From contig CP158635.1 of the NCBI GenBank assembly GCA_050273025.1, positions 6,138,001 through 6,202,000 of the forward strand: a stretch of DNA of 64,000 bases. The letters are read 5' to 3'. Under the pieces are notes generated by a model, which was given only the letters and a program-made list of their open reading frames with translations, searched no databases and was not told the DNA's origin. Shown piece after piece: positions 6,001-47,267 of the stretch. Position numbers and translations under genes: made by a program. This DNA is from Cenococcum geophilum. Taxonomy: Eukaryota. Each line of letters opens with the position of its first letter. The stretch's first letter is position 1.

Positions 6001-6913
6001 TACTCTATAAACCCTTCCTAGCTTATAAACATAAACTATACTTCTTAATTAGTGGTCGTCATTCTATTCGCTTATATTTCCGTAAGGTAAGGCTTAAACT
6101 ACTTAAGTGCCCTTTTTAATAGGAATAGTCCTGTATATACTATTCGATCTATAGGTATTAGCAGCTTTGCTTCTTTTTGCGTAACCTTAAAGTATATTTA
6201 TATAAGGAATTTTTTAAGTTTTAATCTTTCTTCCGAGTACCTTTTAATTAATAGTAATTTAATCTTTGCTACTCCTATCCCATTAATCCTATTTTCTAAT
6301 ATCGTATTATTTTCTATTAGCTAGTTAACTATCTCTTATAGTTGTCCGACCGTTATAGGTTGCTATAAGTTAGTATCTGCCATATTAGTATTACCTAACC
6401 TTAAAGTAGTTGCCGCCGTTAATGGCGTTATAGTGGCTGCTTTTAGTAGCATATTGTTTAACTTTATTAATGCCGTAACTTTGGTAGTAAATATATAATA
6501 AAGCCTTATAGTAGGAACTACAGTGGACTTATTAATAGGCTAGGTATATAGGTAAATAAGAAGTTGACAACGTAATAATAACTAGTAGAGTAGTTGCCTA
6601 ATAGATTAACTCTAATTGTATTCTAAGATTCACTATAAAGAAGAGAACTATCTAGGTAGGGACTGTAGTCCTTTAAATACACAACCGTACTCTTAAGAAA
6701 TCCCCTTTATACGTAAGGTACGTGTTATACGTATTATATATACGTTCCCTTTATACACTGCGTATACTGCGTACAACGTCATATAACCTTAGTTACCATT
6801 CCTCGTCACATAGCTCTATCGGCTCTATCCTAGACCGTGCCTAAATTAACCAACTAGCTTCTTCCGACTCTTCTCTAAGTAGTCGTAGCATTGTACTTAA
6901 AGCGTCTATAACA
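1..6913 (-). mobile_element. Ty3/Gypsy (chromovirus) LTR retrotransposon, copy 1, RIP-degraded, 3' end runs off the window
   Basis: Reverse-complement homolog of 17997-25922 across gag, PR, RT, RH, IN and chromodomain. 5' LTR is ~6494-6913 and starts TGTTATAGACGCT on the minus strand. Inserted into the LINE at 6914+. Confidence 0.93.
6494..6913 (-). repeat. 5' LTR of Gypsy copy 1
   Basis: Similar to LTRs 17997-18421 and 25498-25922 (GTACGGTTGTGT, CCTACCTAGATAGTTC, GGCAAC.ACTC blocks). Confidence 0.85.
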
Positions 6914-9600
6914 AAGGAGCGACTTAGGGGGGCCTTTCTTAGATTCTCTAATGGCCTAAATACTAGACCTATACGTTATAGTTAGCTAAACAACTGCTAT
7001 ATATAATAGGCGCGACCTCTAAAAGTATAGACCCTATATAGAATTAACGATCCTAGATAATATAATATACTATACTTAGCCCTTATAGGCCGCTTGCGTT
7101 ATATATACGCTCTACTAGAGCTTACTATCTACCTATACTCCTAATACCCTTAGGCCCTAAACTAGTTAACCCCTAAAGCCTTAGATGCGAATTATATACT
7201 AGAGATCTATAGATTAGTTGCGTTTTCTTATAAAATAGATTAGCTAGTATTTCTCTAGTAAGAATTAGACTCTATATTATCTTGCCTATTCTATATAGGT
7301 GTTATAAGCTTTCTCTAGTATTCTACAATTCTCTACGGCTGTTAGCCTATATATAATTAGGTTTATATTATTAATAAAGCCTATCCCCTAGGTCGCCCCT
7401 TCCTTAAAGAAGTTAAGCAGGTTGCCTATAAAGAAAAGGAAGAGTATAGGCAAAAGGGGTAATCCTTATAGTATTCCTATTATAACTGCAATAGGGAGGC
7501 TCTGGTATCCGCTAAAGACCAGTAATGTTTCTTTCTAACCTATAAACCCTTAAACAAATTATATAATCCACTTTAGGAAGCCTTTTGCCCTAAGAATATA
7601 TAGGAGACGCTTATAGGGTACGTTATTATAGGCGCCACTAATATCTAGGCTAAGCATTAATACTATAAAGTCCCTTCGCATCGCCTATATAGATTTAATA
7701 GTGGTAGCGAGTAGCGTAAGAGCTAATAGTATTAAGCGGTTCTTTCTTGCCCCTATTTAGCTTTATAGTAGTAGGGCGTATTCCTTAGCCGTGTTTACTA
7801 TATAGTCCGCTATTACCCTTTCTAAGATCTTACTAAGGGTATTTTCTAAGGCAATAGGGCGGTAGCTTCCTGGGATTAAGTAATCTACTTTACCTTTTTT
7901 TTAATAGGATAACCGTTGTTATAGATCTTCTAAGTCGCGGGTAGTAGCCTATAGCAAAGTATACTCTAGCTACATCTATAAGCTAGGGTGCTATAAGTAG
8001 TCTATAGGTCTTTAAGGCCTTATTTAGAATCCTATTTAGTCCTAGTACTATATTATTTAAAAGGCGGCTAATAGTTCTAGCTATTTCCTCTGTTATTATA
8101 TCACTATTAACCTATAGGCGAGTTACTGGTATTTTACCTATAATATTACTAAGGTCTGCTGGAGCTAGTTAAGGGAAAACCCTTTTTATAAGGATCTTTG
8201 CCTTCTTATCGTTGTTATTAGTGGCCTATAATTCCCCTACTCTTTATAGGGGCGGTAGATATAAGTCTTCTACTAGGCGCCCTACCTTTTTCTTTACCTA
8301 TTTTACTATAGCCTAAAGGCCCTTATTATAGGGGAGGCTTAGGTTAAAAGTATACTTGTTTATAAACTGTCTCCAGTTATTTCTTACCTCTTTTTTTTAG
8401 GGTATTCTTTAACTGGTTTCTTATGTCTTTATATTGTCTCTCGTCTTTAGGGTTATAGCTACTTATATATTTTCTTTTTGCTTATTATTAGCTAGTAATA
8501 AAAACCGTGTATTATGCGGACTATACGTATTGCGTATAGGGGCCCGGTTTTAAGACCGGGCAGTACTCTTTTAGCCTATTTTTAATTACTACCTAGATCC
8601 TTTCTAGTCTTTAGTTAATTTCCTTAGGGGTAGCTAATAAGCCTCGCTTATTTAGTATCGGGTGAATTTCTTCTAGGTTATAAAGTTGTTGTTTAACTAT
8701 ATTAAGGAAGCTATTTATTTTAAGCTTTCTTATTACATATCTTTTACTATTTAGTTACGCCTTAATATCTAGATCTAGCTATATCTAAATAGGGATATGG
8801 TCTAAAGCGAGTACCTATTCTTCTTTAGGGTTATATTTTTTAAGTCTCTAGTATAGGCCTTCGTCTATAAATATAAGGTCAATTATACTTCTAGCAATAC
8901 CTTGTTGCCATATAATTGCTCCTAGGGGGGCAGCTAGCTTAAGGCCCCAGATATCTATAGCTCTTAGTAGGTACTCTACCTATCGTTTAGCAGCAATATA
9001 GATACCCCCTTACCGCGGGTGGTAGAGGTTTATATCTCCTAATAGGATAAACTCTATACCTTTGGTTTCTAATAAGCTTATTACTAATATAATATTCTCT
9101 ATTAATAGGACCCTTTTAACCCTAGGGTTATATACATTAATAATTTATACCGGTCCCCTATATGTCTAGATTGTTATAACTATAATATCTAGGTTAACTG
9201 CCTGCTATAACTATAAGGATAGGCTAATAGCCTTACTAATTATAAAGCATATGTGTATAGCTGCTTTTGGTTTATATAGGAGCTGGAATCCTTAGGGGCA
9301 GTATGTTAATTATATATAGGCATTATAATACGGCTCTTATATAGTAAGGATATAGTGTTTCTCTAGGTCTAGACTGTCTAGTAAGGGCCTTGCAAGACGG
9401 TAGTTTATATTGCCGCAGTTGTACTGTATAATGGATAGGTGGCGGACCCCCGGCGAGGGTCCTTCGCCTCTTCTTCGTTTCTCACTTCTTCTGTTTCTAC
9501 TTTCTCTAGGATATTCAGAACTTCTATCTCTTATGTCTGCACCCTAGTTACTACTCATTTTGTGTAGAGCTTTCCATTCCCGTATTTTGTCTATTTTAAT
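6914..9600 (-). mobile_element. Tad1-like LINE, copy 1 (end of ORF1, APE endonuclease, RT), RIP-degraded fragment
   Basis: Minus strand reads IIQYNC (endonuclease start, ~9432), SYRPIALENTL (~7865), and relics of GIPQGSP (~7470) and GF(I/V)DD. Homologous to 14628-17730. Confidence 0.9.
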
Positions 9601-12596: not shown

Positions 12597-15500
12597 TAAG
12601 GCTTAACGCTACCAGATTACTTCTTATAATCTTAATAATAATCTGTATATTACTACTTACTAGCTATATTGTTGCTTCGATCTGTTTAGGAAGCACGTAC
12701 TTATAGGTCTATTTAATAGCACTAGCTTTTAGTCCTAATATAAGTGGTAGGTATAAGGTGGCGGCTATATATATAGCTTCTTATAGAGTTTAATAGCCCT
12801 AAAGCTAGATCTGTTAACTAGTAAATTAAGGGCGGCTTTTGCTAAGCACTGGGCTGCTTTTATATTTATAATAAATCTCAATTAATCTAGGCCTCTTAAT
12901 CTTTAATATTCTTCTACTCTTAGCTATAAAGGATAGCTTAATGCTAGTAAGCTTTTTACTGCCTACCTTAATTAATTTTAACGGTACTGTAATTATACTA
13001 AATCTTACTACTTAAGATTAAAGAAAGGCTCTATTAGAGTAAAGGAGTGCCGCTTTTACTTTCTATGCTCTTTCCGCGATAAGGCCGCTATATTAAAGGA
13101 TTAAAATTAATATTCCTAGACGTTCTGTCTATAGCGTAATAATAAGCTTTTTAATGGCTATAATACAGCTATAATACTAGCGTAGATAGTAAATATTAAT
13201 ACGTCGCCCGCTATAAGCATATTAGTAATAGTTAACTATATAGGCAAATATTACAGTAAGGAAGAGAAGGAGTTAACTTCCTACTAGGAGTTACTCTAAT
13301 TAGTATAGCCGCATGCTAATAGTCTTTATGCCTTTAGTTTAGTAGTAGCCAAGTATAAAAATAAGCCTATTGCTAAACGCGATTAGTTAGTATAGGAGGT
13401 ATACTATCTACTTCTTAATATTTCCCTTTCCGAAGACTTAAGGAATATAGTAACTTTAGACTACTACTAAGAAGGTAATTAAAGCGCTATATATAAGCTT
13501 ATGGATGGGTAATTAAGAGGGTATAAATTGTTTAACTATAAGAAATATAAGCGTTGCCCAAATAGGGTAGAGGACGTTACTTTCCTTAAGTTTTAACTCT
13601 ATTTTAATTACTCTATTTATAAGCGTCGACTAAGAGTAAGGCACTAAGTTATATTATACTTTCCGCGATATAAAGGCGATCCTTCTTATCCGTAGTATTC
13701 TATGTTCTGCTATATAGAGCTTATTCTTTATTATCCATAAAAAGAGTATAAGAAAGTGGCTACTTATACTAATAGATTTGGGGCCCCTAATTATATAGCT
13801 TTTTATTAGGCTTATGTTAAGCTCGGACCCTTAGAACTCGGCTAACCCCGAACTCGGCCACCTAACTAAAACCGAACCAATAATTTGTAGACCTATTTTC
13901 TTCACAACGAATCGATTAATATGGACCAAAATATGCAGAACTTATAAATGGCTATTGTAGATTTTAAATCTGGTATTTATAAGTCTGCGCGAAAAGCTAT
14001 GCTTATATATAATGTCCCTTTGTCAATTTTAAGCGATTAATTAAGTAGTACGCTACTAGGGCAATTTATACACTAATATAAATAGCAATTAACTCCTATA
14101 TAGGAAACCTTGCTTATTAATTAGGTACTTAAATAGGACTTATAAAGTTTTACTTGCTTATATATATAGTTATAGAAAAATAGTAACCTAACCCTTTAAT
14201 TAAAATAGTAATACTAGACCCCCTTGTAAAATATAGGCAATTAGCTATTTTATATAAAAATTTTATATAAAAATTTTATTTACCAAGTTAATAGAAAGTA
14301 TGTAAATTAATATAGCACAACTAAAATAAATTTAAAAATTCTATAACCTTTATAAAAAGGTATAAAGGAAGGTTAATATATAAGTAAAAAGTACCTAAAT
14401 TTTAAATAAATTTAAAGCTATATTAAGTGCATATATAAACTAAATTACTATAAGAGATACCTTTAAAATAAGGACTTTTATGTAGCTACTAAATAATTAT
14501 AAATAGGTATTTATTATAGAGATAATATCTACCCTTAATTAATTAAACTTCTTATAATTTTTAAAGTAAAACACTTTCAATTAATATAATTCTGCTAAGG
14601 AAAAACACTCTATTAAGTATATATAATTCGACAGGTAGAGTGCTTACTAAGAGCTATAAACACCTAGGGCCTTAAGTTGGCCACCCCCCTAGGAGCAACT
14701 ATATGGCAATAAGGAACCTCTAAAAGCATAATTGACCTCATATTTATAGACGAAGGCCTATACCAGAGACTTAAAAGGTGCAACCCTAAAGAAGAATAGG
14801 CACTCGCCTTAGACCATATCCCCATCTAGATATAGCTAGATTTGGATATTAAGGCGTAACTAAGTAGTAAAAGATATGCAATAAGGAAGCTTAAGATAGA
14901 CAGTTTCTTTAATATAGTTAAATAATAACTCTAAGACCTAGAAGAAATCCACCTAATTCTAAATAAGCGAGGCTTATTAGCCACCCCTAAGGAAATTAAC
15001 TAAAGACTAAAAAGGATCTAGGCAGTAATTAAAAACGGGCTAAAAGAGTACTGCCTGGTCTTAAAACCGGGCCCCTATACGCGACACGTATAGTCCGTAT
15101 AATACGCGGTTCTTATTACCAGCTAATAATAAGTAAAAAGGAAATATATAAGTAGCTATAACCTTAAAGATAAGAGATAATATAAAGACATAAGAAACTA
15201 GTTAAAGAATACCCTAAAGAAAGAAGTAAGGAATAACTGGAGACGGTTTATAAACAAGTATACTTTTAACTTAAGCCTCCCCTATAATAAGGGCCTTTAG
15301 GCTATAGCAAAATAGGTAAAGAAAAAGGCAGGGCGCCTAGTAAAAGACCTATACCTACTACCCCTATGAAGAGTAGGGGAATTATAGGCTACTAATAACA
15401 ATAATAAGAAGGCAAAGATCCTTATAGAAAGGTTCTTCCCTTAACCGGCCCTAGCAGACCTTAGTAATATTATAGGTAAAACACCGGTGACTTACCTAAG

Positions 15501-16015
15501 GGTTAACAGTAATATAATAACAGAGGAAATAGCTAGAACTATTAGCCGCCTTTTAAATAATATAGTACTAGGACTAAATAGGATTCTAAATAAGGCCTTA
15601 AAAACCTATGGACTACTTATAGCACCCTAGCTTATAAATATAGCTAGGGTATACTTTATTATAGGCTACTACCCGCGACTTAGAAGATCTATAATAACGG
15701 TTATTCTACGGAAAAAAGGTAAAGTAAATTACTTAATCCTAGGAAGCTACCGCCCTATTGCCTTAGAAAATACCCTTAGCAAGATCTTAAGAAAGGTAAT
15801 AGCGGACCGTATAGTAGATATAGCTAAGGAATATAACCTACTACCACAAAGCTAAATAGGGGCAAGAAAGAACCGCTTAATACTATTAGTACTTACGCTA
15901 CTCGCTACTACCATTAAATCCGTATAGGCGATGCGAAGGGACTTTATAGTATTAATGCTTAGCCTAGATATTAGCGGCGCCTATAATAATATACCCTATA
16001 AGCGTCTCTTATATA

Positions 16016-17033
16016 GTAGTAGTAACTCTTTAATTAACGTCTGATATGGATCCTACTGGCCTACGTAGACTACTCTGTTATAGGGGGAAAACTTATAATT
16101 TATATGAAGAAAACCCTGCAGTTAGGGGAAGGAAAAACCCTATAAGCCACCTCAGTTGGATAAAAAACCCCAAATTGCTATATTTGCACATAGTGCGGCC
16201 CTACAGGCCTACAGCTACGTCCTCCTCCTTAGATGTTTTGAACTCCTTAGGAACTACTACTTCCTTCTCTAGCTTATCCTAGCTAGGGTTCACTACGTCC
16301 CAGCTAGGCCTTGCCAATTAATTACTATATTTATTATTTTCTATATCTTGGCTATCCCTTATATGCTATCTCTTGTCTAACTATTGCTATATACGCTATA
16401 CCTCCCCCCCCCTAGGGCCTATTAAAGGCGTAAGGGGGATTTATCTATAAACTACTACTATACTAAAAGGCGAGCGGGACGTATGTATATATACCTAGGT
16501 ATCTTTTATACCTAGGCCCTAGTTGCTAGGCCCTCGCTAAGGGTTACCACTCCTTAAGAGGAGACAGGAAAACCGTACGGTATTGTTTAAGCTGCTAGGT
16601 AGTATTTAATAGTTAATAGTAAGTGACCGTATGCTCCGCGGGCGATCGCCCTAGGGGTTAAAAGGGGCCGTATATTTGCTTATTTTTGTCTATTTACGTT
16701 TGCTTATACGTTAATATAAGAGGTTATTAATGCTTTCTATTAGGGGTCAGGGGATGCTATTAAATACTGTGCATCCATATTGGATCGTACAGGTGCCTTA
16801 ATAGGAGGATAGTGTAGTAGCTATTATCGTAAGGGGTACCAACGGTGGTGGTTTTTAAGATCTCACCATCCCATATAAAAACTTTTCACCACCGCCTATA
16901 ATACTCGCAACCACCTCCACCACGTCGTATCGCACGCTGTGCGACGTCTCTGCATTAGCTCTAAGTCTGAACTTCGAAGACTTAGGTTCGTAGCCGTCAC
17001 CACGTACAGGTGCAGAGTCCGTTTTCGACGACC
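16016..17033 (-). mobile_element. Non-autonomous non-LTR retroposon (SINE/SIDE-like), 1018 bp, with 5' HDV-like ribozyme, LINE-like 3' end and (TAC)3 tail
   Basis: 14-bp TSD GCGTCTCTTATATA at 16002-16015 and 17034-17047. Empty site present in LINE copy 1 (7597-7610). Minus strand ends ...GAGTTACTACTAC. No recognisable coding relic. Confidence 0.9.
16948..17033 (-). ncRNA. HDV-like self-cleaving ribozyme (predicted fold)
   Basis: P1 GGUCGUC/GACGGCU with G1-U wobble; P2 CUCUGC/GCAGAG; P3 ACC/GGU; L3 UGUACGU; P1.1 GU/AC; P4 CUAAGUCU/AGACUUAG; J4/2 CUAAU with the catalytic-position C at 16958. G1 is the first base of the element. Confidence 0.85.
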
Positions 17034-17996
17034 GCGTCTCTTATATATCCTTAGGGCAAAAGGCTTCCTAGAATAGATTATATAATTTATTTAAGGGTTT
17101 ATAGGTTAGAGAGAAATATTACTAATCTTTAGTAGATACTAGAGCCCCCCTATTGCAGTTATAACAGGAATACTATAAGGATTACCCTTCTCGCCTATAC
17201 TCTTCCTTTTCTTTATAAGTAACCTACTTAACTCCTTTAAGAAAGGGGCGACCTAGGGGATAGGCTTTGTTAATAATATAAACCTAATTATATACGGGCT
17301 AATAGCTATAGAGAATTGCAGAACACTAGAGAAAGCTTATAATACCTATATAAAATAGACAAGACAATATAGAGTCCAATTCTTACTAGAGAAATACCAG
17401 CTAATCTACTTTATAAGAAAACGCAACCAATCTATAGATCTTTAGCACATAATTTACGTTTAAGGCTTTAGGGGTTAACTAGTTTAGGGCCTAAGGGTAT
17501 TAGGAGTATAGGTAGATAGTAAGCTTTAGTGGAGTGTATATGCGGCGCAAGTAGCCCGTAAGGGCTAAGTATAATATATTATATTATTTAGGATCGTTAA
17601 TTCTATATAGGGTCTATGCTTTTAGAGGTTACGCCTACTATATACAGCAGTTGTCCGGCTAACTATAACGTATAGGTCTAGTATTTGGGCTATTAGAGAA
17701 TCTAAGAAAGGCCCCCCTAAATTGCTCCTTAAACCACTCTAAAAGGTCTAAATAGCCTGCCTTTAGAGTATAATAGGCGAATATAAGCAAACGGCTATAG
17801 CACTGCTTAAAAAGGAAGCCAATATTTCCCCCCTATAACTATATATTAAAGCCGCTATAATATAAAGGGCGTAAAATAAACGCAACTCTAATATTATAAA
17901 GTATATTAAAACACGCCTAAATAAACTATAGAGGGACCCTAGGGCGCCCTATAGGAGAATAAACTAATAACCCTAAAGTAGGGAAGATATATTAGA

Positions 17997-20900
17997 TGTT
18001 ACGGACGCTTTAAGTACAATGTTACGACTACTTGGAGAGGAGTTGGAAGAAGCTAGTTGGTTAATACAAGCACGGTCTAAGATGGAACCCGTGGAACCAT
18101 GTGACGAGGAATAGTAAGCAGAGTCACGTGATGTGATCTATATAATCTGTATAATCTGTGAGATCTATTATAGAGCGAATAGAGTAGATAGAGTAGATAG
18201 AGTAATAACTTTCTTAGAAGTACGGTTGTGTATTTAAGGACCCTTAGTCCCTACCTAGATAGTTCCTTCCTTGTAGTAATTCTTAGAATATAATTAGAGT
18301 TAATCTATTAGGCAACCACTCCACTAGTTATTATTACGTTGTTAACTTTTATACTTGCATTTCCTATATACCTAGCCTATTAACAAACCTATTGTAGTTC
18401 TTACTATAAGGTTCCGTTACATAATTACTACCTAGTTACGGTATTAATATAAGAAGTCGAATAATATGCCACTAAAAGCAGCTACTACGACGCCATTGAC
18501 GGTAGCAACTACTTTAAGGATAGGAGGTGACACTAGTATGGCGGATACTAACTTATAGTAACCTATAACGGTTGGACAGCTATAGGAAATAGTTAACTAG
18601 CTAATAGCTAATAATATAGTGTTGGAAGAAAGACTTAATAGGATAGGAGCAGTAAAGATTAAGCTACTATTAATTAAGAGATTTATAGGAGAGAGGTTAA
18701 AGCTTAAAGGATTCCTTATATAGATGCATTTTAAGGTCTTATAGGAGGGAGTAAAGTTACCTATACCTGTGGATCGGATAGCCTATACAGGACTATTCTT
18801 ATTAGGAAAAGCACTTAAGTGGTTTAAACCTTACCTTACGGAGATATAGGTAAACGGAATGATGACTACTAACTAAGACGTGCGATTTATATTCTTAAGT
18901 TAGGAAGGATTTATAGAATGACTAATGTAGATATTTGGAGACCTAGAAGAAATAACTATAGCGGAAAGAAAACTCCAGAACCTTATGTAATGAACTTTAG
19001 TAATTAAGTATATAATATAGTTCTAGACACTAGTAATATAAGTAGAGTAGAATAATAGGGCGCTTATGGCATAGTATAAATAGGGACTTAAGGCTAAAGT
19101 CTAGGACGTAATTATCCTAATAGAAGATGCGGATACCCTAAGGGAACTAATAGATTAGGCGATTAAGATTAATAATTGGATCTACTAAAGGGAATAGGCT
19201 AAGAGAGGCTAGGATAGAGTTCTATAGTTGTATAAGGCGCAAAGTACATAATAATAAAAGCTAAGTTAGAAACTATGGTATGGCGTAGAGCTAATGGACC
19301 TAAGTGGTACTAAAGAAGCCTATAAGAGATGGAGTAAACTATAGAAACCTAGAGGATAAGGATTAAGTGATTAAAGGTCTAAGGAGCAGAGGCTGAATTA
19401 GGGATTTTAATAGTAGAAGACATTTAGGTGGACTCTATAATAAGAGAAATGGTTTAAAGAAGGAGCTTATATAAATTATGGAAAACAGGGTTATTACGTT
19501 AGAGACTGTAGAAGTAGGTAGAGTTACTATATAGTAAAAGGTATGAGATTAGTAGACGATATATATGTATAAAGGGACGATAATATACTACGAGGAACAA
19601 AAGAGTATTTAATTAGAAGTTTTGCGTTTTGTTATAATAACGCATATTAAATTTATAAGGACGCTAAGTATGGCGTAAGCTATTAGCTATAAGAGCTAGC
19701 ACTTATAGGATGTAAAGGAACTAACGAACTAGTTTATAGATTGGATATTAAGGACGATAAATTCAACCTAGGCGAAATATTCCGTAATAATAAGGTAATA
19801 AGGGCCGCTTACTAGGAGCGAGTAGATCTTAGAGATGTTATACTAGAGGTAGAGGATGATTCTATTATAGAATAAGGAACATTAATAGGGATTGAAACCC
19901 TACTAGATATAATATCTATCGCTTTATAAGACGTAAGAGAAGTAAGATAGCGAACTACTTCGGCACTTAATAAAGGCAAAAGGCCAAAGGCTTAAGATTC
20001 TTAAGATGAGATAAGAGACGACTAAGATTCTTAAGATGAGATGAGGTAAGCTTAAGAACCTATAACGGATAGAAATTGATAGAGTAGAGTAGTGGCTTAG
20101 TTTAAAGATATACGAATGAGCTTGGGATAAGAATTCCTAACGGTATAAGATTTTTAAGATAAGATAAGTAAGATTTAGGACTCTTAAGATGAGACAAGGA
20201 CACTAGTTAAGCCTAGTTAAACTAAGGTAGGGGCTAAGCTTAGGTTAGAAGTAAGCTCGGGATTAAAGAACCTAAGGGGTTAAGAATTTGGGGTATAAAT
20301 TAGGATACCTATAAATAAGAGGCCGGGAGCTTCTTTATAGATTAGAGAATCTGCGGCATAAATAGTAATTAAACTGGGAGACGAATATATGGACCTAGAG
20401 GATTTACTAGTTAAACGAAGTGTTTAGACTAAAGATTGAAAAGCCAATATTAGGATTAAGAAGTAAGATAACTTTAAGAATTAGAGCGTAAGGCGCAAAC
20501 TAAAAGAATTATCGCGTGGTAAGAATAGAAACTAGATAAAAGATCTAGTATATTAGGACGTATAAAGGACAGAGCACTAGTATAAAGAATTACTAATAGG
20601 CCGAGAGTAGGTATACTAAGAGCTAAGTGGCTTACTGAACTAGAATAAGAAGAGGATTTAGGGATTCCTATTAGGTTTAAGGAATGATATACTAAAGGCT
20701 GTTATAACGTAGTAATAAAGAGATATTTTCTTACGGATAGACCGTATATACTCTAGCAGCTATACTAAAAGTAGTATAGGTAACGACGCAATAATAAGTA
20801 GGAAGATTTCTATATATAGTTGGATGAAAAAGTTATCTAGGACTACCTAATTATAGAGAAGGCTATAACGTATATTAAAGGAGCCTTAATTATAATATTA

Positions 20901-23900
20901 AAGGATCTAGAGGAACGTTTAGAGGACTAGAGAAGCGAGAGGCGCATCTTAGTACCTGCGAATAAAATTGTAACGTTTAGATTAGTATAATAAAGGTTTA
21001 AACTTAAGGGTAAGAATAAGCTAAGAGTTAACCTAAAGCACCTAGTATACTATATAATATTATAGATTGCGTATATAGACGATATATGCGAAATATATAA
21101 GAATCTAAAAGAAAAGAATTAGAAATACCCTATAAGGATATACTGGATAACGGATAAGTAATAGTATAGGAATGCTAAATATATATATAGATGGCATCTA
21201 ATAAAAATCTAAGAGGAAGGAAGTTTAGTACTTTAACTAGGAAGATTCTTTACGGAAGAATGCTTAGATGGACAATAGTGGTGGGAATGCCTAGAAAATA
21301 TGTGTCTATAGTATATTAAAGATAAAAAGCGAACTAGGCATTAGCTAAAAAATAAGCTAAGTATACTAGGATTAAGTGGCTAATAGTTAGGAAAAGTAGA
21401 GGCCTATAGGACTAAAGGGAGCTAGTGGTAGAGCCTTAAACCCTTAAAGGAATTTAAGGACAATACCTAAATTTATGGATTAATTGGTAAGATTAGCAGT
21501 TTAAAGCGCTAATAAATAGTGGAGTAACGCGAAACTATATCTTACTAGTAGTAGTTAAGAGAATAGGGCTACCTTATAGATAAAAGGAGTAACCTTACCT
21601 ATTAGTTATAATTTTAGGAGATTTAATAACCTATAGAGGAGGGATTATTAATCTTAAAACAGGACCTATTTAGATAACTATTAAAGGAAGATAAATTAAG
21701 ATGTCTTTTAATATCCTACTATTAGGACGGGACGAGGCAGTATTAGGTATGCCTTAGTTATAGGAATATAATTTAAGAATTGATTGGATTATAGGTTAGG
21801 TTAATATTAGAGATACTTAACGCTATAAGATGCGATAATAAGCTAAGTTAGTATAGTACTAAGTAGGAGCAACCTATAAAGAAATAGAAAAAGGACTAAG
21901 CTATGTACTAAAGAGATACTATAAGTATAGTAAGAAACTATAGTTACTAGAAAGTAAAAAGCTGTTAGAATATATAGCATGGGACTATAAAATAGAGTTA
22001 GAACTAGAAATAAGTCTAAAGTTTTTTCTAATCTATAAGCTTACTGAAGAAGAGAATAGAGTGTTAAAAGAGTTTGTCTAGGAAAATCTACGAAAGGGAT
22101 ATATTAGACTATTGCAGTTATTAGCGAGTTATCTAGTACTATTTGTACTAAAGAAGAATAGCAAACTAAGGCTGTGTATTAACTATAGATAGTTAAACAG
22201 CATTACTAGAAAGGATAGGTATCCTTTACCCTTAATTAGCGAAATCTAAGACAGGATAGGTAATGCGTAAATCTTTACAAAGATAGATCTAAGATGGGCG
22301 TACCATTAAATTAGGATTAAAGAAGGCAACGAATAAAAGGCAGCCTTTAGGTTAAAGGAAAAACTATATAAACTATTAGTTATGTAATTTAGGCTTATAA
22401 ACGCACTAGCAACGTTCTAGAAGCGTATTAATAATATATTAGAAGAATACTTAGATGAATTTGTTATGGTATATTTTAATAATATTATTATCTACTTAAT
22501 AACTAAGGAAGAATATAGGGAACACGTTAAATGGGTTCTAAAGAGACTATAAGAAGAATAGATGCTAGTAGTAATTGAGAAATACGAGTTCTTTACTAGG
22601 AAGACTGATTTTATTGGATTTATTATTAAACTAGGCTAACTTAGTATAGATCTAAAAAAGATCGAGGCTATAGTGAATTAGTAGGAACTAGAGAACGTTA
22701 TATAGTTAAGATTGTTCTTAGGGTTTTGTAATTACTATAGAAGGTTTATAGCGTAGTGGTTAAAGGATATTAAGCCATTTACGCGGTTAATAAAGAAAGA
22801 AGAACTATAGGTATAGGGGGAAGAGTAAAGAGAACTCTTTAAGAAAGTTAAAGAGTTGTTTACCTAGGAGCTAGTTCTTAAGATCTATTAACTAGGACTA
22901 GAGACGGTTGTAAAAATAGATGCATTAGACTATATACTAGGGGCGTGCTTTATATAAAGGCATTAAGATAGATAGCACTTAGTGGTATACTATAGTCGGA
23001 AAATAATACTACTGGAGTTAAACTATAATATCTATAACAAAGAGTTATTAGGTATAGTTACAGTATTAAAGGAATAGAGAGCATTTTTATAAGGTATAGA
23101 GAAACTATTTATAGTTAAAACGGATTATAAGAACCTAATAGGATTCCTAATAATAAAGGAACTTAACTAAAGATAGGTTAAATGGGCAGAGATGCTTATA
23201 GAATACTATTTTAAGATTTAGTATACCAAAGGTATAGATAATACGCAGGCAGATACTCTAAGCCGTAAAGCTAAACTATAAAATAAGGAAAAGCTATTAG
23301 GGGCTTTATTACGAAAAGATATAGACGGATTAATTAGGTATAATTATCCGAAAATTACAGTAACTTAAGAAGATAATAAACTAGAGAAAGTCTACGAGAT
23401 ACCAGAAAGCTTTTGGGCATAAAGAATTCTAAAAATATAGCTAGAAGATTTATAAACGGATATATACAAAAATCGAGAAGTAAAGTATATTCTAAAAAGC
23501 ATAGTAGAGTAATTTATAGAGGACTTCTATAAGGGACTAACCTAAGGATATAATGGAGCTATGGGCTTAGTATTAAGACTCTAGAAGGAGTACGTTATTA
23601 ATAGAATCTAGAGGATAGCCAAAAGGGTTATAAAGGAATATTTAGATTACTAAAGGAATAAACCGACAAGGCATAAGCCATATAGAGGGCTATAACCTAT
23701 TAAAATACTAGAGAGACTATAGGAGGTCATATTATAGGACTTTATTATTAAGTTACTAAAATTAAAAGACCCTATTACCGGACAAGATTATAACGCGATC
23801 TTAGTAATAGTAGATAAGCTTACAAAGTGGGGATACTTTATAGCATACACAGAAGAAATCTTAGCAGAAGATATCGCTAGAATCTACATTAAAGAAGTGT

Positions 23901-25922
23901 TTATAAGATATGGAGCACTAAGCAAAATCATATTAGATAGAGATTTAAGATTTATAGTAGCATTCTAGGAAGTGTTTTTAGCGGAGCAAGGAGTTTAAGT
24001 AGTAACTTTTACCGTATATTATCTATAGACAGACGGTTAAACGGAAAGGTTAAATTAAACGCTAGAGTAGTACCTAAGACATTATATTAATTATATATAA
24101 AATAATTGGGTATCGCTATTACTAGTTATATAATTCGCATATAATACAACACCTTAAGAAGGAATAGGTATATTACTATTTAAGGCAAATTATAGATACG
24201 AGCTAAGAACATCGTTATTACTACGGTAAGTAAAGAAAACGAGTAGTACAGCTAAAGAGAGAATAAAGATATTAATGAATCTTTATGCAGACCTTATAGA
24301 ATTAGCAAAGAAAGTATAAGAGAGAATAAAAAAGTACTATAATGCTAAGAGATCTAAGGGACCAGATTTTAAGGAGGGAGATAAAGTATAGCTACTATAC
24401 AAAAATTTTAAGAGTTAATGACTAAGCAAGAAATTGGACTACGTTAGACTAGGACCTTTTAAAATTACATAAAGGATTTTACCGGTCACGTTTAAGTTAA
24501 ACCTACTAGCTAAAATAAAGATCTACCCTATATAGTACATCGTAATGCTAGAGCTAGCATATAGGAATGTTAAGCCACCGGTTTATAAAGTAGACACGTA
24601 TAGAGGATAAGAAGAAGATAAATGGCAAGTATTAAAGATCGTTAATTATAAGAACATCGATAACGAGATATGGTATAAGGTTAAGTGGATAGGCTATACT
24701 AAGACTACTTGGGAGCTACTAGAGAATTTAAAAAACGCTATAGAAAAGGTATAGGAGTATTAGAAGAGATTAGGTTAGGTAGTATTAATAAAGAAGAATT
24801 ACTAAAGAATAAGTTACCTAAGGGGGACCTAAGAAGAGCAGTTGCCGAACTACTTAGATCTGTTTCCTTCTCTATTAGAAGAGAATCTATTTTTTTATTA
24901 CCTAGTTCCTATAGACCTTATTCTATAAGTTTTTACTCCTTAAAGTAAACCTTCTTATAAACGCGTTAAAGACGCTAAACTTTTATAAAGGTAGACTGCT
25001 AAGCCTTAAGGGCATAAGCAAATTCTTTGGATTAATGATAGGCTTTTACTAGCGCTGCGGTAAAATTACCCTTAAGTTTTTCTGCCTTAGATTAAACACG
25101 AGACCCTAAAATAAATTAATTAGGGAACTAGATGACTATTAAGAGTAATAGCTTACGTATATTTAATATTAGAGATAGAGCGAATATTATAGGATAACCG
25201 AATATTTGCTTTAGTGCACTCTAAATAAGAGGAAGGTTGCCAGGATAAAGGACTTGCTAACGTAACATAAACTAGCCCCTCTTTTATATAATAAGAACAC
25301 GGAGATAGTATTATCTCACTAAGAGACAATATTATAGCAACGGTACGAGACTAATAGGCTGTAGAGGAAGAAGAAGGTGCTTTAGGTATTATAAGTAACA
25401 ATATTAACTAAATTAATTAGACGGATATTATACCTCTAGTAAACGACCTAGAGATATTAGGTATCTTTAAGGACGAAGATAAAGAGGAGGAAGATGGTGT
25501 TACGGACGCTTTAAGTATAATATTACGACTACTTGGAGAGGAGTTAGAAGAAGCTAGTTGGTTAATATAAGTACGGTCTAGGATGGAACCCGTGGAACTA
25601 TGTAACGAGGAATAGTAAGTAAAGTCATATAATGTAATCTATATAATCTATATAATCTATAAGATTTATTATAAAGCGAATAGAGTAGATAGAGCAAATA
25701 GAGTAATAACTTTCTTAGGAGTACGGTTGTGTATTTAAGGACCCTTAATCCCTACCTAGATAGTTCCTTCCTCGTAGTAATTCTTAGAATATAATTAGAG
25801 TTAATCTGTTAGGCAACCACTCTACCAGTTATTATTACGTTGTTGACTTTTGTACTTGCATTTCCTATATACCTAGCCCATTGACGAACCTATTGTAGTT
25901 CTTGCTACAAGGTTCCGTTACA
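17997..25922 (+). mobile_element. Full-length Gypsy (chromovirus), copy 2, RIP-degraded
   Basis: 425-bp LTRs 17997-18421 and 25498-25922 (TG...CA), TSD TTAGA, PPT AAAGAGGAGGAAGATGG (25481-25497). Relics of gag CCHC (~19465), PR LIDSG (~21510), RT KIDLRWAYHQIRI (~22280), IN HPQTDGQTE (~24020) and chromodomain WYEVKW (~24670). Confidence 0.96.
24790..25389 (-). pseudogene. Antisense accessory gene inside the Gypsy: Zn2Cys6-like motif, intron, coiled-coil (RIP-mutated)
   Basis: Frame from 25389 reads PCSYYIKEGLVYVTLASPLSWQPSSYLECTKANIRLSY. Reverting four TAT codons to TGT gives C-x2-C-x6-C-x13-C-x2-C-x8-C. Intron-like (G)TACGT...CTAAT...TTTTAG at ~25160-25106. 3' limit is approximate. Confidence 0.65.
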
Positions 25923-27873
25923 TTAGAGAAATAAATAAAGAAAGTAAAAGAAGAATAGTGCTGCTTTAGGGCCCAGGCCTATATAAAGGAGGAAGGGAAA
26001 CGTATAAGAGGCCAGTAAAGATAATAGTAAGAGAGAGAAAGGAGCTAAAGTAAAGTATAAAAAAATGCTAGGAAACTATCTACCGTAATATAATACTGGC
26101 TAGACTAATACTAAAAAGGTATATAGGAGTTAAAGGTATAGAGGCTAACTAAGGCAAAAGAAACCTAAGCCGTAGCATAGTTAACGCTATAGGGGGTAAA
26201 TACTCTAGGGCTCTAAGAAGGCCTAATAAAGGTAGAAAATATAATAGCAACACTTTTAAGAACAGGAATAATAGGACTAAAAGACTGGCTCTACTGGGTA
26301 GGTATCCTAGTAGGTAGCCTAAGATGCGAATATAGCTGGCTAAGATAGACACCAAAACACGTAATACTATTATGCCCCTTACGCACTAACTAAGAAGTAA
26401 TGCTCTTAGTAGCTAGTATAGAGAACTATAATACACTACTCTTAATATAAAAAGGCCTTAAGGCGGTTACCTAGTAGCTTATTAGCTAAAATATACTAAA
26501 CCAGTTCCGGGTTACAAAGGAAATAGTAATAAAGGGCGGGGGGGGCGAGTAACGGGCGCCCCCTGATAACTCTATAGTGGTAAAGTAAAGTTTATAATAC
26601 TAGCGCGTCCGTAAGCTTATTACGGCAGCAGTAGTTTCTAAGAAGGTTAAAAAGTAAGGTAGTAAAGCACTATAGGTAACTCGTAGGCGCCTTACAGGCG
26701 CCTTATAGGCGAGTCCTAAAAGGCAAGGAGATAGATTATAGGGTTTTCTTAAATAGAGTTTTCTCCCTATATATATATAAGGAGTAGTCCGCGTGGGCCT
26801 AATAGGGATCCAAATCGGACGTTAAGCAATGAATAATAATAATAAGTATATATAATATTATAAAATAGTTATAAAAGAATTATATTATATTTAACTAATT
26901 TACTAATATTTTCTTACCTAAAACTAAATTATTTAGTAATAAAGCTTAATTATTATTTTTAAATAGCTATATAAGCCACTCTATAATTAAGTTTTTATTA
27001 AAATATGTATAATATAATATATAACTTATTTTTCTACTACTTTAATTAATATAATAACCCTTAAATCTATTCTATTTTTCCTTTATAAAATTAAACTATT
27101 AGGACTAAATTATAGAGCTTATACTTCTTAATAATATAACTTAAATTAAAGGGTACTATTTTACTAAGTACAACTATAAAGCCTTAAAAGAAGGCCTCTT
27201 AGCAAAAATAGTTAAATTTAGGTAGTATACCTTTAGTATTTATCTATAGAATCCGTATAAGGGCTTTAAGTCTTTATAGGTTAAAAATAAGGCTTTAATA
27301 GAGGCTTTAAGCTTTAAATAAGCTAATGGTAATTGGTTTAATATTATAGACACTCTAAAAAAGCCTTATAATATATATTAGGTAATTTATAGCCTTTATA
27401 ACGAGTATATACTTAATTAAAAGACTTAGTTACTTTTATAAAGAGGAAGTCAACAACTTAAGCAACTTACTGTAGAGGCTATATATAAAGACGCTTAAAT
27501 ATATAGCTTGGGATCACAGCTTAAAGGCCTTAAAGGCCTAAAATTTTATAGGTAGGCAGCTATAGATCTAAATATATAATTTATAAATATATAATTGATT
27601 AAATAAGATATAAAGGAAGTAGAGGAGAAAGAGGATAAAATAAGGGCAAAGGAGTTAAGAGTAAAGCCTTAAAAGGCGTCAGATAGAAAGGCCAGGGCTA
27701 GTTTACTAAATAGCACATAGGGGTAGAATATTAGATTGATTTGGTTAAGAATAGATAGCTTTAAAAGTGGTAGGGTTTGATTTGCTTAAGTGGCCGAGTT
27801 CTAGGGGTCCGAGCTTAACTCTTATTAGCACCTACTTAATTACTTCTGTAATCGGAAACTAGAGAAAGGTTAT

Positions 27874-41533: not shown

Positions 41534-42318
41534 TAACCTGGTACTAACCTAGGCCTTAAAAACGCGTCTGAAAAGTAGGGGCCACTACCTAAGGGGGGGG
41601 TGATATTTGGACGATATGTCGCGGACCTTGGGGGGTCGTGCGTAACCCGAGGTTATGCCAAGCCTAACCCGGACCTCCGATACCTTGGCACACTTAACAC
41701 GCCGTATGCATGTGACGAAGCGGGACAAATGCATCCTCAGTCGGCGCCCAAAGGACGGAAGGGAGCTGAGCTTGTCAGATTGACGACTTGAAATCATGGG
41801 CCTAGAACGTCCCATCAGCTCTGCGGCCTCAGCCGCGGCAACAATCTTACAAAGCTGGCGATGTAAAAGCGTGCTGATGTGAACGCGTGCTATTTCAGCC
41901 ACTTACAGCCAAATGTCGCGGCTGAACGATACAATACAGCATCTCATGCAGAACTCGGATCGAAGAGTCCGAAGCCACCCGATGAATGATCAATGTCAAT
42001 TGGACCATCGGGAGCCCAGCTAGCCACACTATGTGAAATGTGCTGCGGTTTCGGCGCGCGCAGCATGCCGGACACAGTTTTGTGCACGACCAGCTCCAAC
42101 CCGATCTTTAGCGAGCGCGCCGAGATCCAAATCCGGCACATAGCAACCCTTGCATGCAGCCACAGCAATTTACCACAATTACAGCGTCTCTTCAATTCCG
42201 GTGGTTAGCGCAGCCACGTCTGCACGGCCTTTTTGTAGGGGAACTTTTGGTATTTTTGCTGTTTAAGGGAAAGTTAATAAAACACGCTAACCACCGGATG
42301 TGCCAGGAGGCTGTACTA

Positions 42319-42477
42319 CACCACCTTGGCGCATCCCGTTGAAAGCGCGTGTTGATCGCGTAGATCAAACCACGCGGATTTATACCCAACAATACGCTAA
42401 AATATGTTAAAATAGTCGTGCTTATTACTTTCAAGGTATAAAAATTGTGGCGTTTGACCGGATGCGCTAAGGTGGTG
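42319..42477. mobile_element. Small TA-flanked MITE-like element
   Basis: TA|CACCACCTTGGCGCATCC ... GGATGCGCTAAGGTGGTG|TA. Confidence 0.75.
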
Positions 42478-42479
42478 TA

Positions 42480-47114: not shown

Positions 47115-47267
47115 ATAAAATAAGGCCCTATTTATAAAATATAAAGCTGTATTGGTAAAGTTATAGTAGGGTAATACACGACATTTGGCTTTGGGCGAGC
47201 TTCTAATTTTTTGCGACCAATAGTAAAAAAAAGGACTTTATAGGCCTTTACGCAGGCTTCTAGGCTA

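What the first reader, a model, noticed from the sequence alone, without database searches (positions are those of the whole stretch)
16016..17033. Ribozyme-headed non-coding retroposon: an HDV-like fold starts exactly at the element's first base
Seen: a 1018-bp insertion with a perfect 14-bp TSD and a (TAC)3 tail; the paralogous LINE (7597-7610) shows the empty site. Its first 86 nt (minus strand, 17033-16948) fold into a full nested double pseudoknot: P1 7 bp with G1-U wobble, P2 6 bp, P3 3 bp, L3 U-GU-ACGU, P4 8 bp and J4/2 C-U-A-A. G1 abuts the TSD. Known: HDV-like ribozymes cleave 5' of G1 and define the 5' ends of R2, RTE and L1Tc elements and of R2-derived SIDEs. Inference: this is a fungal SINE-like family with no tRNA- or 5S-derived head that I could recognise. 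It would cut itself out of read-through transcripts and borrow Tad1-like LINE machinery. I do not know of a described family with this combination, but could not search.
Basis: partly seen in the sequence, partly recalled or inferred. Interest (0 to 1): 0.92.

Follow-up and report, generated by a model that had tools for sequence, protein, structure and literature searches.

The report
Ribozyme-headed fungal non-coding retroposon family
The 1-kb insertion is one mutated copy of an abundant, transcribed, non-coding jumping element of a fungus whose RNA starts exactly at a hepatitis-delta-type self-cutting fold and whose tail copies that of a neighbouring LINE, a layout so far described only in animals and trypanosomes.

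Summary
The element 16016-17033 (minus strand) has a perfect 14-bp target-site duplication, a (TAC)3 tail and an empty paralogous site. Its first 86 nt fit every element of an HDV-like nested double pseudoknot.

It is not a one-off. Of 118 copies with upstream DNA, 103 start GGCCGTC at G1, and their upstream flanks are unrelated. 47 full copies are 900-1100 bp. 40 of 51 testable copies have direct repeats, mostly 13-15 bp. The window copy is the most RIP-mutated of the 47.

P4 covaries and changes length while staying paired. A second, diverged family swaps both P1.1 pairs.

The last 110-250 nt match the 3' end of the 5.5-kb LINE that the element sits in. That LINE's own 5' end shows no HDV fold. 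RNA-seq reads cover only the element and are strongly strand-biased.

Weak points: Rfam sees it only weakly (16.4 bits against a cut-off of 44), and cleavage itself was not tested.

Verdict: a real HDV-like-ribozyme-headed, LINE-dependent, SINE-like family in a fungus. It is a new variant of a kind known from R2 SIDEs, NARTc and RTE.

The parts
16016..17033 (-). One copy (1018 bp) of a ~1.0-kb non-coding, non-autonomous non-LTR retroposon. It is heavily RIP-mutated: GC 0.427 against 0.53 in the best copies.
   Evidence: TSD and empty site. 47 full copies of 900-1100 bp in other loci, with the window copy the most mutated. No conserved sense ORF longer than 69 aa.
16948..17033 (-). HDV-like ribozyme head, 86 nt. 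The predicted cleavage is 5' of G1 (17033).
   Evidence: Descriptor hit unique in the window. RF02682 aligns whole-model at exactly these coordinates, 16.4 bits. Own covariance model R1 scores 111.6 bits. 98.5% of cells are paired over 80 distinct heads.
17027..17033 (-). P1 5' strand (positions 1-7). It pairs with 16992-16998 (positions 36-42). G1-U42 is a wobble.
   Evidence: G-U in 77 of 80 heads, and 99.1% of P1 cells paired.
17012..17017 (-). P2 5' strand (positions 17-22). It pairs with 16948-16953 (positions 81-86) to form the outer pseudoknot.
   Evidence: 99.0% paired. Positions 81-86 were not part of the search pattern.
16999..17011 (-). P3 (positions 23-25 with 33-35) enclosing L3 (26-32, U-GU-ACGU). 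GU at 17006-17007 forms P1.1 with AC at 16990-16991.
   Evidence: The second family, L057, has CC in L3 and GG after P1', so both P1.1 pairs change on both sides.
16961..16985 (-). P4 hairpin (positions 49-56 with 66-73), variable in sequence and length across copies.
   Evidence: 3 pairs change on both sides (34 cells). One search shows short forms of 5-6 bp that stay paired.
16954..16960 (-). J4/2. The candidate catalytic C76 is at 16958, followed by N-A-A.
   Evidence: C76 is nearly invariant and A78, A79 are invariant. Most copies read C-C-A-A-C.
17034..17047 (.). Target-site duplication, upstream copy.
16002..16015 (.). Target-site duplication, downstream copy.
16016..16024 (-). (TAC)3 microsatellite tail.
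   Evidence: Other copies end in (TAC)n, (TAT)n, (TAA)n or (TC)n.
16034..16264 (-). 3' region with collinear blocks homologous to the 3' UTR of the partner LINE.
   Evidence: element 770-798, 881-900 and 959-1000 match the last 250 nt of the LINE, E down to 1e-14 for other copies. One search shows the alignment by eye.
7597..7610 (.). Empty (uninserted) site in the inverted paralogous copy.
14629..16015 (+). Host and partner LINE, 5'-truncated copy, part 1. Its RT domain is cut by the insertion.
   Evidence: RVT_1 at aa 361-462 of the frame starting at 14629; copies in other loci.
17048..17996 (+). Host and partner LINE, part 2 (the RT continues here).
25924..26845 (+). Host and partner LINE, part 3, with the 3' UTR and (AAT)n tail that the element's tail resembles.

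Best explanation
The insertion is a RIP-degraded copy of an abundant, ~1.0-kb, non-coding, non-autonomous non-LTR retroposon of a filamentous fungus. It has three parts: a 75-90-nt HDV-like self-cleaving ribozyme as its head, a unique body, and a 3' region with a microsatellite tail copied from the 3' UTR of a co-resident 5.5-kb LINE.

Proposed cycle:
1. The element is transcribed, probably by Pol II and often as part of a longer read-through transcript. This is inferred.
2. The ribozyme cuts 5' of G1, so the RNA starts exactly at the element's first base. This is inferred from the fold and from the shared 5' ends.
3. The LINE's reverse transcriptase recognises the shared 3' end. This is inferred from the homology.
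4. Target-primed reverse transcription at TA-rich sites makes 13-15-bp duplications, and full-length copies begin at G1. The duplications and the G1 start are shown by the copies; the mechanism is inferred from them.

As far as tested, the partner LINE's own 5' end has no such ribozyme. The head therefore acts as a module in the place where classical SINEs carry a Pol III gene.
For: Fold: all HDV elements are present and begin at base 1. Chance is about 6e-7 per position. There were 0 false hits in 1.3 Mb of fungal DNA. Two Rfam HDV-family models align whole-length at the exact coordinates, though weakly: RF02682 at 16.4 and 14.6 bits, and RF01787 at 12.6 bits.

Column identity jumps from 0.6 or less upstream to 0.96 or more at +1 in 118 copies, and 103 of 118 start GGCCGTC. 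47 full copies are 900-1100 bp. 40 of 51 have direct repeats, 34 of them 13-15 bp.

Structure conservation: 98.5% of cells are paired, against 27-46% when partners are slid by 1-3 columns. P4 has 3 pairs that change on both sides, plus length variants. The second family, L057, swaps both P1.1 pairs.

Partner: there is 3' homology to the LINE. The LINE 5' end is shared by 5 copies and shows no HDV fold.

RNA: 3514 RNA-seq reads fall only on the element, with zero depth in all 7 flank bins. The first mate lies on the plus strand about 10 times more often than on the minus strand. 136 molecules end at 17024, where the depth beside is 446. Metatranscriptome contigs also cover only the element.

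Conserved T4-T5 runs in unmutated copies argue against Pol III.
Against: No cleavage assay was done.

Rfam finds nothing at gathering scores, and no HDV model appears at E<=10 when a whole 1.1-kb copy is searched.

Nested minimum-energy folds prefer alternative hairpins to P1 and P3. Their z-scores are modest: -2.15, -1.29, +0.17 and -1.81.

There are no two-sided changes in P1, P2 or P3 within the family. Positions 21-41 were fixed by my search pattern, so their invariance says nothing. G-C to A-U changes in P4 could come from two RIP hits.

I wrote the descriptor after seeing the candidate.

The RNA ends pile up at position 10, not 1. This may reflect library chemistry, alignment clipping or a different 5' end, and the data cannot tell 5'-OH from a cap.

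Uniform 5' ends alone would also fit an internal promoter.

All LINE copies seen are RIP-broken, so no active partner was shown.
Confidence: 0.78

Rival explanations
1. Same retroposon family, but the head is not an active ribozyme. The uniform 5' end would be a transcription start from an internal promoter. The HDV-like fold would then be a relic, a structural signal (for stability or RT binding), or a dual promoter-and-fold as proposed for Pr77 of L1Tc.
For: Uniform 5' ends are expected for any element with an internal promoter; the partner LINE itself has a uniform 5' end without a ribozyme. Rfam scores are far below the gathering cut-offs. RNA ends pile up at position 10, not 1. There are no compensatory changes in P1, P2 or P3.
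Against: A complete double pseudoknot starting exactly at +1 is very unlikely by chance. Core letters outside my search pattern are kept in over 90% of 80 heads: G1-U42, C76 and A78-A79. P4 keeps pairing through length changes. The diverged family keeps the fold and compensates in P1.1.
Confidence: 0.12
2. The element is a 'bipartite non-autonomous LINE': an internal-deletion derivative (5' end plus 3' end) of an autonomous LINE that itself starts with this ribozyme and was simply not sampled. On this reading the head is not an independent module.
For: This is how R2 SIDEs and NARTc arose, and how RTE, Ingi and R2 derivatives are described (passages of PMC5786205; abstract of PMC3414825). I saw only about 0.72 Mb of this genome. 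A second ribozyme-headed family exists.
Against: None of 121 ribozyme-bearing loci continues into coding sequence. The five copies not collinear over the full ~1 kb are a 2.9-kb nested insertion in L054, homology that stops early in L021 and L074, and internal deletions in L046 and L008. The LINE that shares the 3' end has a different, well-defined 5' end with no HDV fold. About 750 nt of the body match neither end of that LINE.
Confidence: 0.08
3. Chance resemblance, or an assembly or alignment artefact.
For: Only the weak Rfam scores.
Confidence: 0.02

Closest known systems
R2 SIDEs of Drosophila (Eickbush & Eickbush 2012, PMC3414825; abstract seen in the listing)
   Same: A non-coding, non-autonomous non-LTR element. 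An HDV-like ribozyme at the 5' end makes the precise 5' end from a co-transcript. The 3' end is the one recognised by the autonomous element's protein.
   Different: SIDEs are internal deletions of R2 and share both ends with it. They insert site-specifically in 28S rDNA using a restriction-like endonuclease. Here insertion is dispersed at TA-rich sites with 13-15-bp duplications, the host is a fungus, and the partner LINE's 5' end lacks the ribozyme as far as tested.
L1Tc and NARTc (and the RIME/SIDER relatives) of trypanosomatids, with the Pr77/L1TcRz HDV-like ribozyme (PMC3185411, PMC3383444, PMC4035085; abstracts seen)
   Same: An HDV-like ribozyme occupies the first ~77 nt of dispersed LINEs and of their non-autonomous partners. 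It frees the RNA from longer transcripts.
   Different: There the same 77 nt head is shared by the LINE and its non-autonomous partner, and it doubles as an internal promoter. The host is a kinetoplastid with polycistronic transcription.
HDV-like ribozymes of RTE, Baggins, R4, R6, SART and LOA elements (Ruminski et al. 2011). That paper is not held; I know it through passages of PMC5786205 and PMC6765202.
   Same: Ribozyme-terminated 5' ends of non-LTR retrotransposons that lack promoters. The passages describe hundreds of copies with a conserved downstream sequence and differing upstream sequence.
   Different: All are in metazoans and on coding LINEs or their deletion derivatives. PMC5786205 lists six ribozyme-bearing clades (R1, R2, R4, RTE, Ingi, LOA), with no fungal element and no Tad1.
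Canonical SINEs with LINE-derived tails, for example Mg-SINE/MGL of Magnaporthe (passages of PMC2104539)
   Same: A composite of head, body and a LINE-mimicking 3' tail. Microsatellite-type ends and duplications of 10-20 bp.
   Different: Canonical SINE heads are Pol III genes (tRNA, 5S, 7SL, snRNA) with internal promoters, and the elements are shorter than 600 bp. Here the head is a ribozyme, the element is 1 kb and it carries internal T-runs.
MINE (WEIRD-MGL chimeras) of Magnaporthe (PMC2104539; passages read)
   Same: A fungal, 1.1-kb, non-coding, highly expressed 5' part that is always full-length, joined to a LINE 3' part. One chimera has a 14-bp direct repeat, and the authors state that no solo gene for the 5' part was found.
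   Different: The authors interpret MINE as template-switch chimeras carrying long MGL parts. No ribozyme is reported for it. I could not obtain the WEIRD sequence, so any relation is only a lead.
Rfam RF02682 (HDV-F-prausnitzii) and RF01787 (drz-agam-1)
   Same: Whole-model alignments at the exact coordinates. The core stretch from P3 through L3 to the start of P1' is nearly the same as the RF02682 consensus.
   Different: The scores are 12.6-16.4 bits against cut-offs of 37-44. The hosts are a bacterium and a mosquito. The element is not a member of either Rfam family by score.

Membership tests
HDV-like self-cleaving ribozymes | Nested double pseudoknot: P1, P1.1 and P4 form one stack, P2 and P3 the other (definition from passages of PMC4908430). 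| tested here: met
   All five helices can be drawn. 98.5% of cells are paired in 80 distinct heads, against 27-46% for slid partners.
HDV-like self-cleaving ribozymes | The cleavage site is at the first nucleotide of P1 (here, the first base of the element). | tested here: inconclusive
   P1 starts at the element's base 1 in 118 copies. The RNA 5' ends were not mapped precisely: the pile-up is at position 10. No cleavage assay was done.
HDV-like self-cleaving ribozymes | Core single strands: L3 beginning with U, and J4/2 with a catalytic C followed by N-A-A. G1-U wobble at the base of P1. (These motif details are recalled.) | tested here: met
   L3 is U-GU-ACGU, but it lies inside my search pattern. 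C76 is at least 90% conserved, A78 and A79 are invariant, and G1-U42 occurs in 77 of 80 heads; all of these lie outside the pattern.
HDV-like self-cleaving ribozymes | Covariation that supports the helices. | tested here: inconclusive
   P4 has 3 pairs that change on both sides, plus length variants. P1.1 has both pairs swapped in the single L057 relative. P1, P2 and P3 show none, because the family is young and was ascertained by pattern.
HDV-like self-cleaving ribozymes | Reaches the curated Rfam score of an HDV-family model. | tested here: not met
   0 hits at gathering scores. The best is 16.4 bits against a cut-off of 44. The models omit the pseudoknots and come from distant hosts.
HDV-like self-cleaving ribozymes | Mg-dependent self-scission giving 2',3'-cyclic phosphate and 5'-OH ends. 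| not testable with these tools
   This needs in vitro transcription and 5'-OH mapping.
Non-autonomous non-LTR retroposon (SINE-like) | Many dispersed copies with a defined 5' end, a simple-repeat tail and variable target-site duplications. | tested here: met
Non-autonomous non-LTR retroposon (SINE-like) | No coding capacity. | tested here: met
   In the unmutated copies L047 and L013, sense ORFs are at most 47 and 69 aa and are not shared.
Non-autonomous non-LTR retroposon (SINE-like) | The 3' end is shared with an autonomous LINE in the same genome. | tested here: met
   The LINE has an RVT_1 domain.
Canonical SINE | A head derived from a Pol III-transcribed small RNA gene with an internal promoter. 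| tested here: not met
   No tRNA and no 5S, 7SL or snRNA match. Conserved T4-T5 runs lie inside the element.
Bipartite non-autonomous LINE (SIDE or NARTc type) | The 5' end is identical to the 5' end of the parent LINE. | tested here: not met
   The LINE that shares the 3' end starts with a different sequence and has no HDV fold. An unsampled parent cannot be excluded.
Tad1-clade LINE as partner | Placement of the RT (and APE) within the Tad1 clade by phylogeny. | not tested
   Only RVT_1 hits on RIP-broken frames read with X at stops, and by eye a decayed APE-type motif. No reference set was available for a tree.

The most novel reading that the evidence does not exclude
Fungi hold a class of 'ribozyme-headed SINEs'. 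In these, an HDV-like ribozyme, not a Pol III gene and not the partner LINE's own 5' end, serves as a portable head. The head lets any read-through Pol II transcript yield a precise, retrotransposition-competent RNA.

The two diverged families seen here would be members of an older, wider group. That group might also include puzzling fungal elements such as the always-full-length, highly expressed non-coding WEIRD part of Magnaporthe MINE elements.
Probability: 0.3. Interest if true: 0.8.

Novelty: new variant of a known kind. Interest (0 to 1): 0.66.

Why it matters
HDV-like ribozymes at retrotransposon 5' ends are known from animals and trypanosomatids. A passage of PMC5786205 lists six LINE clades, none of them fungal. 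My four literature searches turned up no fungal case.

This family would extend the mechanism to fungi. It would also show a ribozyme used as a free-standing SINE head joined to a borrowed LINE tail. That bears on two questions: how non-Pol III SINE-like elements get their precise ends, and how such modules are assembled.

The family is abundant and transcribed, and it includes copies without RIP damage. It is therefore experimentally tractable, and it is a likely unannotated contributor to repeat-rich fungal genomes.

It also gives Rfam-blind sequences for building better HDV-family models.

Tried and rejected
- The whole genome of the window is not held, so there is no genome-wide census.
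- Earlier findings of this scan held nothing on this genome or sequence. The 8 rows shown for 'HDV ribozyme' concern six phages, an archaeal virus and a DNA transposon.
- Single deleted LINE present once: rejected.
- A coding version with the same head: none among 121 loci. Five copies are not collinear over the full ~1 kb. L054 carries a 2.9-kb nested insertion; in L021 and L074 homology stops at positions 189 and 691; L046 and L008 have internal deletions.
- tRNA, 5S or 7SL head: none.
- HDV fold at the LINE's 5' end: none. This held with my descriptor when each of four requirements (G1, the J4/2 motif, P1.1, the leading U of L3) was dropped in turn and then all four together, with Rfam at E<=10, and with model R1 with filters off.
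- Long ORFs in the loci are ordinary fungal genes (PKS, Arg5,6-like, ribonucleotide reductase, kinase), not intact LINE ORFs. All LINE copies seen lack ORFs of 90 aa or more.
- The 5' part of the second family (L057) could not be fetched.
- Nested MFE folding does not recover P1 and P3. I treated this as uninformative for a pseudoknot.
- Ruminski 2011 is not held. No supplementary files were consulted.
- The LINE's clade (Tad1) was not pursued with the large protein searches, because source names would not settle a clade.
Full report
**1. The observation**

Reading 15900-17150 on the minus strand shows a 1018-bp block, 17033->16016. It lies between two identical 14-mers, at 17034-17047 and 16002-16015, checked by script. 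It ends in TACTACTAC.

A self-BLAST of the window aligns 6914-7610 to 17730-17034 and 7597-8985 to 16015-14629, at about 90% identity. The two alignments overlap by exactly the 14 bp at 7597-7610. The paralogue therefore has the empty site, with one transition in it.

The block occurs once in the window.

**2. The fold**

- P1: positions 1-7 with 36-42, with a G1-U42 wobble.
- J1/2: positions 8-16.
- P2: positions 17-22 with 81-86.
- P3: positions 23-25 with 33-35.
- L3: U-GU-ACGU.
- P1.1: GU (27-28) with AC (43-44), directly after P1'.
- P4: positions 49-56 with 66-73.
- J4/2: includes C76-N-A-A.

This is the architecture that defines HDV-like ribozymes. They are a nested double pseudoknot, they cleave at the first nucleotide of P1, and their core is formed by L3 and J4/2 (passages of PMC4908430).

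Rfam gives no hit in the window at gathering scores. In E-value mode on 351 nt, RF02682 (HDV-F-prausnitzii) aligns its whole model to exactly 16948-17033 on the minus strand, but at only 16.4 bits against a cut-off of 44 (E = 1). On an unmutated head, RF02682 gives 14.6 bits and RF01787 (drz-agam-1) gives 12.6 bits, again at the exact ends. On a whole 1.1-kb copy, nothing from the HDV families appears at E<=10. Rfam therefore points to the right place but does not recognise the family.

I wrote a descriptor from recalled family features, after seeing the candidate. It requires:
- G1;
- P1 of 7 bp;
- J1/2 of 0-12 nt;
- P2 of 5-7 bp;
- P3 of 3 bp;
- L3 of 7-8 nt starting with U;
- a two-pair P1.1;
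- P4 of at least 4 bp;
- J4/2 reading C-N-R-A.

Results of the descriptor:
- It hits only this site on both strands of the window.
- It gives 6 start sites in 80 dinucleotide shuffles of the window, and 1 hit in 3000 shuffles of the element, which is 6.1 Mb.
- In the related loci, 1.3 Mb counting both strands, it hits 85 sites. All are heads of this element and none lies elsewhere.

Nested MFE folding does not recover P1 and P3 and gives modest z-scores, from -2.15 to +0.17. That is expected for a pseudoknot, but it is no support.

**3. It is a large family whose 5' end is G1**

No whole genome is held.

The run index found the element in DNA runs of two coded organisms (0.56-0.69 of the sampled words). 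It also found it in seven soil or root metagenomes (0.35-0.49) and in six fungal metatranscriptomes (0.11-0.14).

Laying four runs on 15850-17200 gave 7819 and 4277 contig pieces from the two DNA runs at 90% identity or better. Their differences from the window are dominated by A>G and T>C, so the window copy has suffered G-to-A and C-to-T changes. Contig alignments stop at 17030 and run on into heterogeneous sequence (agreement 0.53 and 0.56). This is explained by the window's T3 where the family has C3.

Many lie on contigs of 20-145 kb that also carry ordinary fungal genes.

In 118 copies with at least 30 nt upstream, column identity is 0.31-0.60 at positions -30 to -1 and 0.96-1.00 at +1 to +7. 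103 of 118 start GGCCGTC. The other 15 differ by one or two letters, almost all C-to-T or G-to-A transitions.

48 copies align from position 9 or earlier to position 1000 or later of the window element, and 47 of them are 900-1100 bp.

The copies that are not collinear over the full ~1 kb are these:
- L054 has a 2.9-kb nested insertion.
- In L021 and L074 homology stops at positions 189 and 691.
- L046 and L008 have internal deletions.

None of the copies runs into coding sequence.

Of 51 copies whose 3' region is held, 40 repeat their upstream flank exactly over 8 nt or more at 936-1032 nt from G1. The repeat lengths are 15 nt (16 copies), 14 (14), 13 (4), 12 (2), 11 (1), 19 (1) and 8 (2). 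Eleven copies show none.

Tails are (TAC)n, (TAT)n, (TAA)n or (TC)n. The upstream ends of the duplications are TA-rich.

The window copy is the most mutated of the 47, with GC 0.427 and TpA/ApT 1.72. The best copies have GC 0.53 and RIP indices near 1.

**4. Support for the structure from the copies**

Eighty distinct heads (alignment A1) keep 98.5% of cells paired in the 26 pairs of the pseudoknotted structure. With 3' partners slid by 1-3 columns, only 27-46% are paired.

P1, P2, P3 and P1.1 vary only on one side, giving G-U, or not at all. Positions 21-41 were fixed by my pattern, so their invariance is uninformative. The following letters lie outside the pattern and are conserved:
- the P1 5' strand;
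- the P2 3' strand;
- G1-U42 (77 of 80 heads);
- C76 (at least 90%);
- A78 and A79 (invariant).

P4 has three pairs that change on both sides (34 cells). It also exists in shortened 5-6-bp forms and a bulged form that all stay paired. Two RIP hits could mimic some G-C to A-U changes, so the length variants weigh more.

A covariance model built from A1 found further copies that lack the exact pattern. It also found, at the very edge of L057, a diverged relative at 31.2 bits in truncated mode and 19.9 bits with filters off. This relative has the same P2, P3 and GAACC spacer. Its P1' is different, its L3 is U-CC-ACGC, and GG follows P1', so both P1.1 pairs change on both sides. Its P4 is long and its J4/2 reads C-A-A-A.

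The body of this relative matches nothing else I hold. It ends after about 1 kb in a LINE-like 3' motif with (AAT)n. Its P1 5' strand lies beyond the locus edge and could not be fetched.

**5. The partner LINE**

The element sits, antisense, in the RT domain of a non-LTR element on the plus strand. RVT_1 stops at 16015, and the frame resumes after 17047 because insertion plus duplication add 1032 bp. That LINE is itself split by a Ty3/Gypsy element at 17997-25923, and it resumes at 25924.

Copies in the loci show a full length of about 5.56 kb. Five copies share a common 5' end with unrelated upstream flanks. The LINE ends in a conserved 3' UTR with (AAT)n, which lies near 26845 in the window.

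The element's last ~110 nt are plainly homologous to that 3' UTR. One element subfamily is almost identical to it over the last ~40 nt. Collinear blocks extend over ~250 nt, with E values of 1e-8 to 1e-14.

By eye, the full LINE copy in L022 has a duplication of about 13-15 nt.

The LINE's 5' end shows no HDV fold. I tested this with my descriptor when each of four requirements (G1, the J4/2 motif, P1.1, the leading U of L3) was dropped in turn and then all four together, with Rfam, and with model R1.

All LINE copies seen are RIP-broken, with no ORF of 90 aa or more. Only RVT_1 was detected. I did not test whether the LINE belongs to the Tad1 clade.

**6. RNA**

3514 reads from an RNA-seq run of coded organism B lie on the element, and none lies in the seven flank bins.
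- The first mate lies on the plus strand about ten times more often than on the minus strand. In most stranded libraries that means a minus-strand RNA, which is the ribozyme-sense strand.
- 136 molecules end at 17024 (position 10), where the depth beside is 446.
- 3008 of the 3514 reads are only 90-95% like the window copy. The expressed copies are therefore other, less mutated ones.

A pile-up nine bases inside G1 fits a discrete 5' end near G1, given the usual loss of terminal bases. It could also be alignment clipping. It does not show a 5'-OH.

The unmutated copies have no sense ORF longer than 47-69 aa, and none is shared. They have no tRNA. They carry conserved T4-T5 runs in the sense strand, which speaks against Pol III.

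**7. Reading**

Shown:
- a high-copy, ~1-kb, non-coding retroposon with TPRT-type duplications;
- a LINE-derived tail;
- transcription;
- a 5' end that coincides to the base with G1 of a complete, conserved HDV-type fold.

Inferred:
- self-cleavage;
- read-through transcription;
- mobilisation by the LINE.

**8. Comparison with what is known**

Ribozyme-terminated non-LTR elements and their non-autonomous derivatives are established in animals and trypanosomatids. The cases are:
- R2 and its SIDEs;
- RTE, Baggins, R4, R6, SART and LOA;
- L1Tc with NARTc.

I saw the abstracts of PMC3414825, PMC3185411, PMC3383444 and PMC4035085, and passages of PMC5786205 and PMC6765202. Ruminski 2011 itself is not held.

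The passage of PMC5786205 names six ribozyme-bearing LINE clades. None is fungal and none is Tad1. [quoted passage not shown]

The full-text searches, judged from their listings, found no fungal HDV-like retroposon. The 2026 preprint on ab initio ribozyme discovery screened two fungi, but the passages I read report no such element.

What differs here is the host kingdom and the architecture. The head is not the partner LINE's own 5' end, so the element looks like a SINE whose Pol III head has been replaced by a ribozyme.

Magnaporthe MINE elements are a suggestive fungal parallel that I could not test. Their 5' part is an always-full-length, 1.1-kb, non-coding, highly expressed sequence (WEIRD), joined to MGL LINE sequence. 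One chimera has a 14-bp repeat (passages of PMC2104539).

**9. Verdict**

Catalysis and the LINE's clade remain untested. It is a new variant of a known kind, and I score its interest at 0.66.

Noticed in passing
L057:1-998: A second, diverged ~1-kb family with the same layout. It has an HDV-like head (L3 U-CC-ACGC, P1.1 CC/GG, long P4), an unrelated body, and a LINE-like 3' motif with (AAT)n. Its first ~15 nt lie beyond the locus edge.
   Followed up: partly
window 17997-25923 (+): A RIP-degraded Ty3/Gypsy LTR retrotransposon nested in the host LINE. Its LTRs are at 17997-18422 and 25498-25923 (92% alike). It has RVT_1, RNase H and an integrase SH3 domain.
   Followed up: partly
window 25-8985 versus 14629-24962: An inverted duplication of 9 kb or more (81-90% identity) that carries the same LINE-plus-Gypsy junction. 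It is a segmental duplication, not two independent LINE insertions. The 1-kb element entered one arm afterwards.
   Followed up: partly
L022 (minus strand, about 5611 down to 55); also L028, L040, L060, L030: The partner LINE is about 5.56 kb with a well-defined 5' end. The L022 copy has, by eye, a ~13-15-nt duplication and a run of extra A before its first base. All copies seen are RIP-broken.
   Followed up: partly
window 16948-17033 and RF02682 consensus: The core stretch (P3, L3, P3' and the start of P1') of this fungal retroposon ribozyme is nearly letter-identical to the consensus of the bacterial F. prausnitzii HDV-like ribozyme. The one P1.1 difference is compensated (C-G there, G-C here).
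   Followed up: no
heads of all copies, positions 3-6 with 12-15: MFE folds pair part of the P1 5' strand with J1/2 (CCG.../...CGG), and pair L3/P3' with P1'. These alternative hairpins compete with P1 and P3 and might gate cleavage.
   Followed up: no
window 42000-52000: GC rises to 0.42-0.48 in an otherwise 0.27-0.39 window. This is probably a gene island between RIP-degraded repeats. I did not examine it.
   Followed up: no
literature (PMC2104539): Magnaporthe MINE/WEIRD: a 1.1-kb non-coding, highly expressed 5' part, always full-length, fused to MGL LINE sequence. It may be an analogue whose 5' end has not been checked for a ribozyme.
   Followed up: no
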